Source: Mobula hypostoma | Lineage: Eukaryota | Assembly: GCF_963921235.1 (NCBI RefSeq) | Contig: NC_086097.1 | Coordinates: 29,142,001 to 29,206,000, forward strand | Length of the DNA stretch: 64,000 nt | Direction: 5' to 3' | In this document: in pieces, positions 1,995 to 62,650 of the stretch | How the letters are laid out: each line of letters begins with the position of its first letter | Position numbering within the stretch: the first letter of the stretch is position 1 | Notes under the pieces: generated by a model | What the model saw: only the letters and a program-made list of their open reading frames with translations | What the model was told of the DNA's origin: nothing | Database searches by the model: none | Made by a program: the position numbers and the translations under genes

Positions 1995-3200
1995 GAGTCA
2001 AGATTGTTTAATATCATAGATATTAAGATAATATCATAGATCAAGTGTAAAGGAGAACAAATAATTGTTACTGCCACTCTCAATGTCACCATAAGACATA
2101 GGAGCTGAATTAGGCTATTCAGTCCATCGAGTCTGTCCCATCATTCTGAGTCAGCATCACAGTAAGACACTGTAAATAACACAATAAGTATAAACACATA
2201 GGATAGCTTATATACATCAATTGATTGTTTGTCCATAAGGTAACACTAGGCACAGGAGTGTCTGTACATAAGGTGACTGACAGGAAATGATAAAGTAGTG
2301 CTGATGAGGGATGTGGGGTGTGGGGGGGGGTGTTGACTGCCTTACTGCTTGGAGAAAGGAACTGTTTTTGAGAGGGAAGAGATGGGCCAGCAAGGAGATA
2401 AGTCTTGCTGGAAGGTCTGAGCCCGAGACATCACTGACTCTTTTCCATAGATGCTGCCTGACCCACTGAGTTCCTCCAGCATTTTGTGTGTGTTGCTTGG
2501 ATTTCCCAGCGTTTGCAGATCTTCTCTTGTTTGAGTCTGGTGGTCCTGATGTGGATGCTATATAGCCTCCTTCCTCATGGAAGTGGGACAGAAAGTCCAA
2601 AAGCAGGGTGGGTGAGATCCTTCATGATGTTACTGGCCCTTTTTTGGTGCTTTTCTGCACATATAGGCTGGTGCTGGTGATGCGTTGGGCAGTTTTGGCT
2701 ACCCATTGTGGAGCCTTCCTGTCTGTCACAGTGCAGCTACCGTACCATGCAGTGACGCAGCTTGTTAGGATGTTCTCTACTGTGCATCTGTAGAACGACA
2801 TTGAGTATAGATGTGCATAGTCCTGCTTTCTTCAGCCTCTGCAAAGTAGAGCCATTGGTGAGCTTTCCTGATTGTGTAAAATCTGTTCTGGGATCATGAG
2901 AAGTTGTGCGAGATGTGCACCTTCAGGAGTTCGAAACTTCTCGCAGTTTCCACTGCTGATGTAAAGAGGGTTATGAGTGATGCGAGTTCTCCTGAAGTTG
3001 ATAACCATCTCCTTTGTCTTGTTGACATCGTTATTTGCCTAGCACCAAGCCTCGAGCTCTTCCACCTCCTCTCTGCAGGCCATTTTTTATGATGAGCTCC
3101 ACCACAGTCATGTCATCGGCAAACTCGACAATGTGATTACCTCAAGTATTTGGCCGAACGGTCATATGCCAGCAAAGTGTGCAGGGTTCGACACACAGCT
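1995..3200 (-). mobile_element. Decayed Rex1/Babar-like LINE 3' fragment, interrupted by a CR1 tail (~2090-2145) and a Penelope-like repeat (2373-2529)
   Basis: Reverse strand resembles the 3' part of the Rex1-like copy at 28720-30145 (SILT.C.T.WYG-type motif; 3'UTR); host sequence resumes after the nested insert. Confidence 0.65.
2373..2529 (+). mobile_element. Penelope-like terminal repeat fragment with degenerate hammerhead motif
   Basis: tccatagatgctgcctgacccactgagttcctccagcattttgtgtgtgttg matches the other copies; flanked by TTTGAG at 2367-2372 and 2530-2535. Confidence 0.75.
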
Positions 3201-3309
3201 CCAGGGAGTACTCGTCTTTGAGGCACGACGTAAGGGCCTGAGCTATAATGGTAAAGTTGAGGTCAAAGTAAATTTATTATGCAAGTACTTCAATGTCACC
3301 ATATACTTC

Positions 3310-3515
3310 CTGCCGCTGTCCGTAAGGAGTTCGTACGTTCTCCACATGACCGCGTGGGTTTCCTCCCACAGTCCAAAGACGTACAGGTTGGTAGGTTATT
3401 TGGTGATAGTAAATTGTCCTGTGATTAGGTTAGGATTGAGTCGGAGCTCGCTGAGCAATGAGGCTCAAAAGGCCAGAAGGGCCGATTCCGTGCTGAACCT
3501 CAATAAATCAATAAA
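3310..3515 (+). mobile_element. 5'-truncated tRNA-derived SINE
   Basis: Core gtaaggagttcgtacgttctccacatgaccgcgtgggtttcctcccacagtccaaagacgtac shared with the full copies; (aataa)n tail. Confidence 0.75.
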
Positions 3516-3964
3516 TAATAAATACAACCCTGAGATTTATTTTCTTGCAGGCATTTACAGGAAAATAAAGAAATACAATAGAATTGATGAAAAACTATAC
3601 GTACACAAAGACAGAGGAAATAACTGTGCAAAAGAAGACAGACTGTGCAAATATAAATAAATACTGCTGAGAACAGGAGGCGTCGTCCTTGGAAGTGAAT
3701 GCCTTTTTCCCAGGGTAGCCAAGTCCAGAATTAGGGGCATAGACTTAAGGTGAGAGAGGAAAGCTTTAAAAGTGACCCAAGGGGCAACTTTTCCCCACAG
3801 GGTGGTTAGTAAATGCAATGAGCTGCCAAAGAGAGTGCTGAAGCAGGTACGATGGTATCATTTACGAAGCACTTGGACAGGCATGAGTCTGCTGGAGGCT
3901 GGCTGCCAAACACTGCCGGTCCTGGGATTGCCGAACAGTGTATGTGGACAGGGATCGGTTTGCT

Positions 3965-4345
3965 GTTCACAGAGAACGCTGGAGGAACTCAGCAGATCAG
4001 GCAGCGTCTATGGAAAACAGTGCACAGGCTACGTTTTGGGCCAAAACCCTTCTTCAGGACTGAGAGGGAAGGGAGGGGCAGACGCCTGAATTAAAAGATG
4101 GTGGGGGGAGGGGAATGAAGTTAGCTGGAAGGTGAAAGGTGAAGCCAGGTGGGTGGGAAAGGACAAAGGCTGGAGAACGAAGAGTCTGATGGGAGAGGAG
4201 AGTGGACAATAGGAGAAAGGGTACCCAGGGGGTAGTGACAGGCAGGAGGGAGGAAGTAAAGGGTCAGAGAGGGGAATGGTGGTTGGGGGAGTGTGTGGAA
4301 TTTGGTTCACCGGAAGGAGAAATCCATATTCCTGCCATCAGGTTG
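3965..4345 (-). mobile_element. Penelope-like element 3' end (end of GIY-YIG ORF, pyrimidine-rich UTR, hammerhead motif)
   Basis: Contains gccatcaggttgga (rc encodes QPDG), the purine-rich block, and the motif at 4025-4062 rc CAGTC CTGAAGA AGGGTTTTGGCCC AAAA CGTA GCCTG. Confidence 0.8.
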
Positions 4346-4844
4346 GAGGTTGTTATGCTGTTGTTGTTTAGTCGCTTGGTATGTTCTGTTTTGTTGTGTT
4401 CCGAGCTATTCTGATGAGAATCGTGAACATGCTATGTTGGAGCTGTAACGTGTGGCGACACTGCGGGCGGCCCCCAGCACGTCCCTGGGTGTGTTGGCTG
4501 TTAACGGAAATAATGCATCTCACTGTATGTTTCAATGTACAAGTGATAAATGAATCTGAATGTGAATCTGAGGGGTGGGGCTCGGAGGGATATGTGCCCA
4601 ACACTGACATTAGGACTATCTGGGTGGACATGGATAGGTTGGGCCAGATGACCTGTATCTGTGCTTTTTGGTTCACTGACCCTTTCAGCGCCTGTCCTCT
4701 ATTTCTTCATGTTCCAGTTTTGCTCCTTTGCCCCCCTCATGCACACCCCCAGCCCTCACTTAAAGACTTTTCATCTCTTAATCCTCTTTCATTTCTTCTC
4801 TTGAAACCTCCCAGTTCTCTGAACTGAAACATTAGCACCGTTAA

Positions 4845-60313: not shown

Positions 60314-61520
60314 TTGAGTGTACGTTCAGGGTCTTCTGCTCTGTAGCCCACCACTTCAAGGTTCAATTTGCTGTGCATTCAGAGATACTGTTCTGCACAC
60401 CACTGTTGTAACACATGGTTATTTGAGTTACTGTTCCCTTGTCAGCTGGATCAGTCCGGCCATTCTCCTCTGACCTCTCTCAATAACAAGGCATTTTCAC
60501 CCACAGAACTGCCACTCACTGGAATTTTTTTTTGTTTCTTGCACTATTCTCTGTAAAAACTACAGAGACTGTTGTGTGTGGAAATCCCAGGAGATCAGCA
60601 GTTTCTGAGATACTCAAACCACGCCGTCTGGCATCAACAATCATTCCACGGTCAAAGTCACTCAGATCACATTTCTTCCCCATTCTGATGTTTGGTCTGA
60701 ACAACAACTGAACCTCTTAACCATGTCTGCATGCTTTTATACATCGAGTTGCTGCCACGTGATTGGCTGATTAGATATTTGCACTAACGAACAGCAGTAC
60801 AAATGTGCTTAAGGGAGGAGAAGATGGCGGCGCGACGCAGTGCGTGCGGCCTCTCCTGTGATGAATATCTGTAATCTGTCAAGTAGGAGGCCGTGCACAA
60901 TTCTGATTTGATGGAGACGGACATGCGAGCACGGAGGAACATCTGGTGAAACTTCTGAAATGCCTGTTTCGCTGCCACTGCTACTGTGTAATCCGAAATC
61001 TCCAGAGGGGAAGGCCCCAAATCCTCGGCTTTGCCTGTTGCTTGGCGGCCGGGGCAGGGGTCGAAGCGCTAGGCAGAGATGGTGCTTGGTGCTCGGTGTC
61101 AGAGGGCTGGTCGGAGGCTTGAAGTTTTCGGACGGACTCAGAGTTGGACTGTGGTCGGGTGCTTCCAGGATGCTGCATCGGCAAGTTTGCGGCGCTGGAA
61201 GCTCACGGCAGGGAGAGTTTCTCCCTTCTACTGTCTGCGTGAGATGATGAGGCTATCGGGACTTTGAGACTTTTTTTTTACCGTGCCCATGGTCTGCTCT
61301 TTATCAAATTATGGTATTACTTTGCACTGTTGTAACTATATGTTATAATTATGTGGTTTTTGTCAGTTTTAGTCTTGGTCTGTCTTGTGTTTCTGTGATA
61401 TCATACTGGAGGAACATTGTATCATTTTTTAATGCATGCATTACTAAATGACAATAAACGAGGACTGAGTGTCCTCATAATCTAATCTAATCTAATCTAA
61501 TAAAGTTGCCACAGAGTGTA
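60314..61520 (-). mobile_element. Deleted Tc1-like DNA transposon (N-terminal HTH region only), terminus split by retroposon copy C
   Basis: ORF 60516-60707 MGKKCDLSDFDRGMIVDARRRGLSISETADLLGFPHTTVS is a Tc1-type paired-like HTH; homology continues frameshifted to ~60330; terminal taaagttgccacagagtgTA at 61501-61520. Confidence 0.85.
60813..61500 (+). mobile_element. Unclassified ~690-bp non-coding retroposon, copy C
   Basis: gggaggagAAGATGGCGGC start, (tctaa)4 tail, collinear with copies A and B plus a ~45-bp extra segment. Confidence 0.9.
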
Positions 61521-61554
61521 GGTCTTGCAACCTGGTTTCCTTCAGTACTGCGTC

Positions 61555-61855
61555 CGTGTGGCACCGATCTGAGCTGTGACACTATTACAGCACCAGCAAC
61601 CCGGAGTCAATGCTGCTGCTGTCTAGTGGGGCTTGTTCGTTCTCCCTGTGACCACATGGGTTTCCTGCGGGTACTCCGGTTCACCCTCATGTTCCAGAGA
61701 CATAGGGGTCAGGGTTAGCAAGCTCTGGGCATGCCGTCTCGGTGACGGAAGCACGGTGACGTTCCGGGGCTGCTCCCCCTGCACACCCTCAGACCGTGAT
61801 GGCCAAGCAACAGATTTCAACAGATGGATATATGATGAATAAAGCTAATCTTTAC
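61555..61855 (+). mobile_element. Diverged tRNA-derived SINE
   Basis: Head, core (cgttctccctgtgaccacatgggtttcc) and tail aataaagctaatcttt. Confidence 0.72.
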
Positions 61856-62267
61856 AAACAGAATCTTTTCACCGTATCTCAGTTTGCATAACAATAATAA
61901 ACCAATTCTATCAATTGTACCAATTCTTTTCAGTCTTGGGTGAAAACCTGTCAGTAAGATAAACAGAAGTGGACATGGAATCCCTGAGGCGTTGTCCAAA
62001 AGTACACCACAGGACCTTTGGACTGCAAGCCAATTTCTTTTGACCTCGACTGTTTCTTTCCCAGTCAGACCATAATTATTGTAATAATTATTCTTTCCAT
62101 CACTTAAGTCAACGGGGAAGCAATTAGCAACCAGATTGCTGTTCTGAACTGATGCTTGCCAGGTTAGACTTGACATCCCGTTAATGGTCAGGACGGTTCA
62201 CGGTCAGTCTGCTCACAGCTTCCCTGGGCATGGGGCTTGTCAGGACTCGGACGTTAAACACAGGACG

Positions 62268-62650
62268 TTCTGCAGATGCTGGACATCCAGAGTAACACAC
62301 ACACACACACGGCAGGTGAGGCAGCATCAACGGAGGGGAATAAACAGTCGATGTTTCAGTTCATCAGGACTGGAAAGGAAGGGGGACGGAACCAGAATAA
62401 GAAGATGGGAGAGGGGAAGAAGTACAGACTGGAAGGTGACAGGTGAGACCAGGTGAGGGGGAAAGTGGGTGGGTGGGAAAGGCAAAGGGCTGCGGAAGAA
62501 GGAATATAATAGGAGAGGAGAGTGGGCCATGGGAAAAAGGGAAGGAGGAGGAGCAGCCGAGGGTAGCGATTGGCAGGCAAGGAGAAGAGAAGGGGTAAGA
62601 GCAAAACTGGGAATGGGAAAAGGGGAGAAGGGAGGGTCTGAAGTTTCAGG
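62268..62650 (-). mobile_element. Penelope-like terminal repeat; hammerhead stem II deleted
   Basis: 62345-62372 rc CAGTC CTGATGA ACT GAAA CATC GACTG. Confidence 0.8.

What the first reader, a model, noticed from the sequence alone, without database searches (positions are those of the whole stretch)
2373..62650. Dispersed family of hammerhead-ribozyme-bearing Penelope-like terminal repeats (~12 copies in 64 kb)
Seen: copies near 2401, 4025, 8127, 15123, 16089, 24435, 25433, 27090, 30583, 46534/46576, 54819 and 62345 align to a reconstructed 38-nt motif CAGTC-CTGANGA-AGGGTCTCGGCCC-GAAA-CGTC-GACTG. This gives stem I (CAGTC/GACTG), the CUGANGA box, stem II (GGG/CCC), the GAAA box, a vestigial stem III with self-complementary ACGU, and a GUC cleavage triplet. 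The copies at 3965-4345 and 16029-16432 link the repeat to a GIY-YIG C-terminus (..EQHLIFRLGSFQPDGMN). Established: Penelope-like elements carry minimal type-I hammerheads in their pseudo-LTRs, thought to need dimerisation through the palindromic stem III loop. Inference: this genome may hold a very large population of self-cleaving RNA motifs on both strands, some inside host transcripts.
Basis: partly seen in the sequence, partly recalled or inferred. Interest (0 to 1): 0.75.

Follow-up and report, generated by a model that had tools for sequence, protein, structure and literature searches.

The report
Decayed Penelope tails with minimal hammerheads
The repeat is real: it is a set of short, mutated tail-end fragments of a Penelope-like jumping gene whose ancestral form matches a small self-cutting RNA motif already published for such elements, but none of the 14 copies here keeps the whole motif, so they are likely inactive and the finding is ordinary.

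Summary
Confirmed but ordinary. All 13 cited positions hold the repeat. There are 14 motif-bearing pieces, 9 on the minus strand and 5 on the plus; 11 match within 12 mismatches against 0 in 100 shuffles. The reconstructed motif is the published minimal type-I hammerhead of Penelope-like elements (Cervera & De la Peña 2014). One copy (16028-16424) joins it to the last 40 codons of a GIY-YIG endonuclease, 70-80% identical to ray proteins; two of these (70%, 74%) are RT/GIY-YIG remnants with a Neptune/Nematis-type linker. No copy is intact: 2 of 12 keep all core letters, and both have lost the ACGU palindrome. CpG decay dominates (36/96 vs 38/312) and there is no covariation. Two head-to-head units have 14- and 12-bp target duplications and a one-sided tail, the known insertion pattern. 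One small extra: core position 6 is A in only 4 of 12 copies, and the T-rich-tail copies mostly carry C, a possible A6C subfamily. The scan has reported this family repeatedly on other DNA of this genome.

The parts
2398..2541 (+). PLE 3'-end fragment. Motif 2400-2437 (C3U, A6C, A9G, A14G; stem I broken). 5' end at the motif edge; has the tail; T-rich tail type.
3965..4345 (-). PLE 3' end with about 13 last ORF codons, pyrimidine-rich UTR and motif 4025-4062 (G12A; ACGU kept; A at 17). No tail.
8072..8420 (-). PLE 3' end, motif 8127-8164. Closest to the reconstruction (3 mismatches): all core letters present, palindrome lost (ACAU), stem I 4/5. 5' limit approximate.
15074..15240 (-). PLE 3' end, motif 15123-15160 (G12A, stem II mismatch). 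Its 3' end runs into a GT-type microsatellite of about 1.15 kb. 5' limit approximate.
16028..16424 (-). 5'-truncated PLE insertion inside a LINE, with a probable 12-16-bp imperfect target duplication. ORF end, UTR, motif 16089-16126 (A6C, G8A), no tail.
16303..16424 (-). Last 40 codons and stop of a PLE GIY-YIG endonuclease.
   Evidence: 70% identical to the C-terminus of P0010 (GIY-YIG), 74% to P0007 (RT core, linker, GIY-YIG)
24424..24525 (+). Fragment, motif 24424-24461 (G5A, A6U, G8A, G12A). 5' end at the motif edge.
25377..25520 (-). Diverged copy, motif 25433-25470 (U4A, A6G). 5' limit approximate.
27000..27122 (-). Fragment, motif 27085-27122 (C3U, A6G, stem II broken). 5' end inside the first box; has the tail.
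30495..30641 (+). Fragment with UTR and motif 30583-30620: all core letters present, palindrome lost, stem I 3/5; cut short on the 3' side.
46441..46662 (.). Head-to-head unit in a 14-bp target duplication (46427-46440 / 46663-46676). Minus arm with tail, motif 46534-46571 (A6C, G12A). Plus arm without tail, motif 46574-46611 (G5A, A6C). Predicted to fold as one long hairpin.
48004..48054 (-). Fragment holding only the sequence 3' of the motif.
54730..54934 (.). Head-to-head unit in a 12-bp target duplication (54718-54729 / 54935-54946). Minus arm with tail, motif 54819-54856 (A6U, G8A, A15.1C). Plus arm begins inside stem II, no tail.
62270..62650 (-). PLE 3' end with UTR and tail. The motif (62345-62373) keeps both boxes but has lost 10 nt covering stem II. 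Limits approximate.
31167..31206 (+). Weak fragment of the 3' part, without motif.
   Evidence: E 6e-4
31931..31988 (+). Weak, old fragment of the 3' part.
   Evidence: E 9e-5

Best explanation
These are 5'-truncated, decayed 3'-end fragments of a very abundant Penelope-like retrotransposon, likely of the Neptune type, and the motif they carry is the known minimal hammerhead, which likely worked only in the active source elements and is likely dead in these copies. Shown: the repeat, its link to a GIY-YIG C-terminus, target duplications, head-to-head units with a one-sided tail, CpG decay, and at least one defect in every copy. Inferred from published work on other PLEs: the element's RT starts at one of two sites just 3' of the motif (copies with or without the tail) and usually stops early, leaving pieces of 50-400 bp; in source elements two tandem terminal repeats on one transcript would pair through ACGU into a double hammerhead, probably with help from the element's protein, and cut after GUC. 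After insertion the copies were probably methylated and decayed without selection.
For: Copies and chance control. Features of the published min-HHR (5-bp helix I, extra base between 9 and 10.1, G10.1-C11.1, palindromic 15.2-16.2). ORF link: window peptide E=7e-14 to 3e-9 against ray and skate proteins. P0007 holds RT core, linker and GIY-YIG; P0010 has Pfam GIY-YIG (E 0.002) and 70% identity to the peptide. P0007 finds 52 proteins of 734-958 aa, 44 of them with precomputed RVT_1; 45/52 have the CX2-5CxxC linker and 42/52 have CxxC before YIG. P0025 reads from the endonuclease end through the UTR into the motif and aligns with window copies 16126, 62373, 4062 and 8164. About 960 contigs in each of two DNA runs continue past 16424 into sequence that, read in frame by eye, gives the residues preceding the peptide in P0002. 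Decay: CpG sites 36/96 changed (30 of them CpG-type transitions) vs 38/312 elsewhere, P=1e-7; core letters 8/96 vs other letters 30/216, P=0.19. Insertion pattern: against PMC8557442.
Against: No full-length element was seen in DNA: no genome is held and both metagenome scans were empty. Contiguity of RT, endonuclease and motif therefore rests on overlapping evidence, not on one locus. Only 5 of the 52 full-length proteins match the 40-aa peptide directly at iE<1e-3. Clade assignment rests on the linker motif, with no tree against named references. No cleavage was tested. In a nearest-neighbour model the double hammerhead of the idealised motif (-19.9 kcal/mol) is not the dimer minimum (-33.7). 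Core letters are slightly, not significantly, more conserved than the rest.
Confidence: 0.9

Rival explanations
1. The dispersed copies form a large population of working self-cleaving RNAs that cut host transcripts, alone or by pairing in trans.
For: The family is huge (129,672 and 116,139 contigs laid in two DNA runs), and 12,696 and 8,620 contigs were laid in two runs guessed to be RNA, whose majority loose ends include the intact 3' half of the motif. Earlier scan notes claim tens of thousands of intact copies genome-wide (not tested here).
Against: 0 of 14 pieces here is intact. The copies are solo or inverted, not tandem; the closest same-strand pair (15160 and 16126, 966 nt apart) are both core-damaged. 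Inverted units are predicted to bury the motif in hairpins of -99 to -126 kcal/mol. A published monomer showed no cleavage and dimers only low cleavage. PAc needed protein, and no RNA-seq ends were seen at its cut site. Only 1 of 9 Xenopus retrozyme dimers cleaved.
Confidence: 0.07
2. The short copies and head-to-head units are a separate non-autonomous family (retrozyme-, SINE- or MITE-like) that multiplies as its own unit.
For: 6 of 15 pieces begin within the first ~11 nt of the motif. Two fold-back units of similar size (222 and 205 bp) occur in 64 kb, both of the T-rich tail type.
Against: The two units have different junctions, and their arms differ from each other (76% complementary for the 46-kb unit). 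There are no tandem arrays, which define non-LTR retrozymes. Inverted 5'-truncated partners and one-sided tails are the normal PLE product. Seven pieces extend into the UTR or ORF (one of them, 25470, uncertainly).
Confidence: 0.08
3. The hammerhead look is a chance product of consensus building.
For: Rfam found no hammerhead family at E<=5; no covariation; no single copy matches.
Against: Majority loose ends from about 1000 independent contigs per DNA run give the intact 3' half. The position 3' of the GIY-YIG ORF and four features that Cervera & De la Peña list as emerging outside their descriptor all match. Those authors needed a dedicated descriptor to find such motifs.
Confidence: 0.03

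Closest known systems
Minimal hammerheads (min-HHR) in pLTRs of metazoan Penelope-like elements, including fish Xena, Poseidon and Neptune (Cervera & De la Peña 2014, PMC4209133; read parts 1-3 of 4 of the text and searched supplement file 2; file 1 with the figures could not be read)
   Same: Type-I topology, 5-bp helix I, one extra base between 9 and 10.1, G10.1-C11.1, loop-less palindromic 15.2-16.2, mostly solo truncated copies, and pairs on opposite strands.
   Different: Helix II is 3-4 bp here, against 7-8 bp in Schistosoma. The host is a cartilaginous fish, which is not named in the text read or in supplement file 2. The density (14 in 64 kb) is far above the 4,000-9,000 descriptor hits per genome quoted for coelacanth and Xenopus, but those counts are of intact motifs. 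A shared A6C core is not mentioned in the text read (a U3-A8 variant is).
PAc, Poseidon from Anolis carolinensis (Frangieh et al. 2024, PMC11167929; read parts 1-2 of 4)
   Same: HHR near the element end, followed by two RT start sites that give copies with or without a 30-40-bp tail. 5 of 15 pieces here have the tail.
   Different: PAc is Penelope/Poseidon clade and was shown active and protein-assisted. This family's relatives have the Neptune/Nematis linker, and nothing was assayed.
Neptune/Nematis EN+ PLE clades and canonical PLE insertion structure (Craig et al. 2021, PMC8557442; read the Introduction and 12 passages)
   Same: [quoted passage not shown]
   Different: No full-length copy was seen and no RT tree was built, so Neptune versus Nematis was not resolved by test.
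Animal non-LTR retrozymes (Li et al. 2026, bioRxiv 10.64898/2026.07.22.740005; read parts 1-3 of 5; supplements closed and may list the chondrichthyan families)
   Same: PLE pLTR-derived type-I HHR; reported in the one chondrichthyan genome sampled.
   Different: Retrozymes are tandem arrays with an HHR in each unit; the copies here are solo or inverted.
Natural A6C hammerhead of phage Bcep176 (PMC3088659 and PMC7151607; passages only)
   Same: Same core substitution as in 4 of 12 copies here.
   Different: That ribozyme is a full phage hammerhead with measured low Mg2+ and better Mn2+ activity. Here it is an unassayed variant in decayed retroelement copies.

Membership tests
EN+ Penelope-like element | C-terminal GIY-YIG endonuclease upstream of the terminal repeat | tested here: met
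   40 codons at 16306-16424; 70% identical to the end of P0010, Pfam GIY-YIG E 0.002
EN+ Penelope-like element | Telomerase-like RT in the same ORF, contiguous with the repeat | tested here: inconclusive
   No RT part in the window. Met indirectly through P0007 (74% to the peptide; RT core plus EN) and its 52 full-length relatives; no single DNA locus was available
EN+ Penelope-like element | 5' truncation, inverted truncated partner, optional 30-40-bp tail, variable target duplication | tested here: met
   Two units with 14- and 12-bp duplications and a tail on one arm; tail in 5 of 15 pieces
EN+ Penelope-like element | pLTR formed by partial tandem around a full-length ORF | not testable with these tools
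   No full-length copy in the window and no genome held
Neptune/Nematis clades | CX2-5CxxC linker between RT and EN | tested here: met
   Present in P0007, P0010 and 45 of 52 full-length relatives; the window itself does not reach the linker
Neptune/Nematis clades | RT phylogeny with named references | not tested
   No named reference PLE proteins were at hand
min-HHR (type I) | CUGANGA and GAAA boxes, A15.1-U16.1, H17 | tested here: met
   Met for the ancestral form and for 2 of 12 copies scored ungapped; not met in 10 of 12
min-HHR (type I) | Palindromic 15.1-16.1 segment for dimer helix III | tested here: met
   Majority loose ends in two DNA runs. A strict palindrome is kept in only 2 of 12 window copies, both with G12A
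min-HHR (type I) | Helix I, extra base between 9 and 10.1, G10.1-C11.1, helix II | tested here: met
   Majority line of 12 copies; 75.9% of cells paired vs 15-45% when slid, a control that favours a structure derived from these sequences
min-HHR (type I) | Covariation in the stems | tested here: not met
   Score 0.148 vs shuffled 0.164; 342/500 shuffles as high. Tested only among 12 decaying paralogues; the informative test is across family consensuses
min-HHR (type I) | Self-cleavage 3' of C17 | not testable with these tools
   All runs laid were contigs, which cannot show RNA ends; 0 of 15 pieces begin at the cut site
Non-LTR retrozyme | Tandem repeats with an HHR in consecutive units | tested here: not met
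   No head-to-tail units among the copies

The most novel reading that the evidence does not exclude
A subfamily with a T-rich tail spread with a fixed A6C change in the hammerhead core. This would be a natural experiment showing that a Penelope-like lineage can amplify with a crippled (or Mn2+-preferring, or substrate-only) ribozyme, and that the motif matters to the element as a structure, for example an RT stop or RNA 5' boundary at the outer edge of stem I, more than as a catalyst.
Probability: 0.3. Interest if true: 0.4.

Novelty: new member of a known kind. Interest (0 to 1): 0.17.

Why it matters
As found, it adds a cartilaginous-fish family to a class described in 2014; a specialist would not be surprised. 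Its use is statistical. A family this abundant lets one ask, genome-wide, whether PLE hammerheads are needed for transposition: do subfamilies with an altered core amplify as well as canonical ones, and where do 5' ends fall relative to the cut site? The function of these ribozymes is called unclear in PMC8557442 and was dispensable in vitro in PMC11167929. If many intact copies did cut host RNAs it would matter for transcript turnover, but this window gives no support for that.

Tried and rejected
Rfam scan at E<=5: 23 matches, no hammerhead family. Own genome: not held, so no genome-wide count was made. Homologue searches with the 44-aa C-terminal piece (14 candidates, none scored) and with an antisense reading of the repeat, meant to see position 6 in other genomes (no candidate): both empty. 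Two metagenome scans for the motif and for the 3' part: 0 matches. Sequencing runs: no RNA holder listed; X16 and X17 are only guessed to be RNA, so expression is not shown. Share of A6 versus C6 in reads: the row for position 16118 was not among the 40 shown (62 hidden). I rejected this as evidence because the table is biased to the reference: position 16096 is also missing although the loose-end majority shows the other letter there. Idea that the pyrimidine tract plus CAG at stem I is a 3' splice site, as in D. virilis Penelope: none of the 15 joints shown fits (348 hidden), so it is unsupported but not excluded. Host gene: 16 long frames and 148 of 226 candidate frames in non-repeated sequence gave only LINE domains and a transposase-like HTH; no exon was found. 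Exact target duplications of 8 bp or more were found for only 2 of 15 regions tested, and one imperfect duplication by eye. PDB search with a full-length relative: no hit. In one search, hits P0015, P0037 and P0042-P0044 are unrelated repetitive proteins and were ignored. The 12-copy tables leave out 62345 (deletion) and the 54854 arm (truncated), which cannot be scored ungapped. Literature: 'Penelope + hammerhead + shark' (4 papers, none on this), 'hammerhead ribozymes + A6C + core' (4 papers, none on PLEs by title or abstract) and a chondrichthyan TE search (5 papers, listing only) found no description of this family or of A6C in PLEs. Repbase and Dfam could not be searched.

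
Full report
Observation. All 13 cited positions fall in one dispersed repeat. An HMM of the motif plus its 3' flank finds 15 strong pieces (E<=2.5e-11) and two weak fragments; the reversed window gives nothing below E=4.8. 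Fourteen pieces carry all or part of the motif, 9 on the minus strand and 5 on the plus. An ungapped scan finds 11 sites within 12 mismatches of the 38-nt motif, against 0 in 100 shuffles. The motif is a reconstruction: the best copy differs at 3 places. The reconstruction is sound. The four CpG dinucleotides are changed at 36 of 96 cells, 30 of them C>T or G>A, against 38 of 312 elsewhere (P=1e-7). The majority loose ends of 1145 and 977 contigs in two DNA runs give the intact sequence from the stem II loop through GAAA, ACGT, C17 and stem I (table 7).

What the repeat is. The copy at 16028-16424 reads, on the minus strand, 40 codons and a stop, about 180 nt of pyrimidine-rich sequence, the motif, and about 60 nt of 3' sequence. 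The peptide finds 45 proteins at E<=0.001. The best are 70-80% identical, and the six looked up are gene models from rays and a skate, so the window probably comes from a batoid (inference). P0007 holds a PLE-type RT core, a cysteine linker and a GIY-YIG domain ending in this peptide. P0010 has the same end (70% identity) and a Pfam GIY-YIG hit. P0007 retrieves 52 proteins of 734-958 aa, 44 of them with a precomputed RVT_1 hit; 45 have the CX2-5CxxC linker and 42 have CxxC before YIG. PMC8557442 gives a Zn-finger-like linker as the mark of the Neptune and Nematis clades. Only 5 of the 52 match the short peptide directly, and no tree was built. P0025 runs from the endonuclease end through the UTR into the motif and aligns with four window copies. 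About 960 contigs per DNA run continue beyond 16424 with letters that, read by eye, extend the ORF as in P0002. A single locus with RT, endonuclease and motif was not available.

Insertion anatomy. Two head-to-head units lie in exact target duplications: 46441-46662 in 14 bp and 54730-54934 in 12 bp. Each has the roughly 35-nt tail on one arm only. The 16-kb copy sits inside a LINE with a probable 12-16-bp duplication and no tail, while 3420, 1031 and 1758 contigs of run X1 continue into the tail at that point. Five of 15 pieces have the tail. This is the published PLE pattern, explained in Anolis by two internal RT start sites. Six of 15 pieces begin within about 11 nt of the 5' edge of the motif, one begins inside stem II and one just 3' of stem I; none begins at the cut site (read by eye; detection favours pieces that hold the motif).

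State of the ribozyme. The ancestral motif matches the published min-HHR in helix I length, the extra base before G10.1, G10.1-C11.1 and the loop-less palindrome. Of 12 copies scored ungapped, 2 keep all 11 core letters (8164, 30583); both have ACAU in place of ACGU and a mismatched stem I. The 2 that keep the palindrome carry G12A. The other two pieces lack stem II or the first box. So 0 of 14 is intact. There is no covariation above shuffles, and core letters are not significantly better kept than other letters (8/96 vs 30/216, P=0.19), as expected for neutral decay. The fold-back units are predicted to form hairpins of -99 to -126 kcal/mol that pair the motif with its antisense. For an idealised motif, the double hammerhead (-19.9 kcal/mol) is well above the dimer minimum (-33.7) in a model without tertiary terms. 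This fits the low activity of published min-HHRs and the protein dependence of the Anolis one.

One small extra. Core position 6 is A in only 4 of 12 copies (C 4, G 2, T 2), unlikely at the 12% background rate (P=1.5e-5, a post hoc test that treats copies as independent). All four C copies have the T-rich tail type (2400, 16126, 46571, 46574; 54856 has T and 4062 has A). None of the seven C-rich-tail copies has C (tail types sorted by eye). Their neighbouring letters fit CpG decay of one ancestral C6-C7-G8 core. Counting the two arms at 46.5 kb as one event gives 3 of 5 against 0 of 7 (hand-computed P about 0.045). A6C is a known natural variant with low Mg2+ activity and a preference for Mn2+. 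Attempts to test it outside the window failed. It is a lead, not a result.

Abundance and host context. 129,672 contigs of one DNA run were laid on a 491-nt copy, 116,139 from a second species, and 12,696 and 8,620 from two runs only guessed to be RNA. Fourteen pieces per 64 kb is about 220 per Mb, which would mean several hundred thousand per genome if this window is typical (extrapolation). About 52% of the window repeats within itself, and no host exon was found.

Comparison and verdict. It works like, and by the features testable here belongs with, the min-HHR-bearing EN+ Penelope-like elements, probably Neptune type. It is not a non-LTR retrozyme, since there are no tandem units. Covariation was not met among paralogues, and cleavage could not be tested. 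Earlier notes of this scan describe the same family on other DNA of this genome; they are unchecked AI notes and not independent support. New member of a known kind; interest 0.17.

Noticed in passing
window 13930-15080: A GT/GC-type microsatellite of about 1.15 kb continues directly from the short GT run inside the 3' part of the 15160 copy. A smaller expansion of the same run sits inside the 62345 copy, between motif and tail. The element may seed microsatellites; no tail was found at the far end of the long array.
   Followed up: partly
window 2400, 24424, 27122, 46571, 46574, 54856: 5' ends cluster at the outer edge of stem I, right after a pyrimidine tract and CAG that resemble a 3' splice site; none lies at the cut site.
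   Followed up: partly
window 25433-25470 and 27085-27122: Both copies have G at core position 6, possibly a second shared variant or independent transitions.
   Followed up: no
window 15900-16027 with 16425-16700; 46420-46440 with 46663-46890: Two PLE pieces are inserted into copies of the same abundant LINE family (RT followed by an ALKBH8_N-like Pfam match in other copies, 28793-29971).
   Followed up: partly
window 19640-22909 (minus): Fairly well preserved CR1/L2-type LINE remnant: an ORF1-like frame (weak OSK match), an AP endonuclease and an RT fragment (type named from recall).
   Followed up: no
window 60519-60716 (minus): HTH_38/HTH_23 match (E 1e-4), probably a DNA-transposon remnant.
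   Followed up: no
P0001-P0004, P0010: The endonuclease C-terminus of this family is built into predicted ray and skate gene models (VKORC1L1, ATP synthase c, neuromedin-U receptor 1 isoforms): exonised fragments or annotation artefacts.
   Followed up: no
window 13807-13911: AT-rich inverted repeat that folds as a long hairpin, next to the long microsatellite; only sub-threshold miRNA matches.
   Followed up: no
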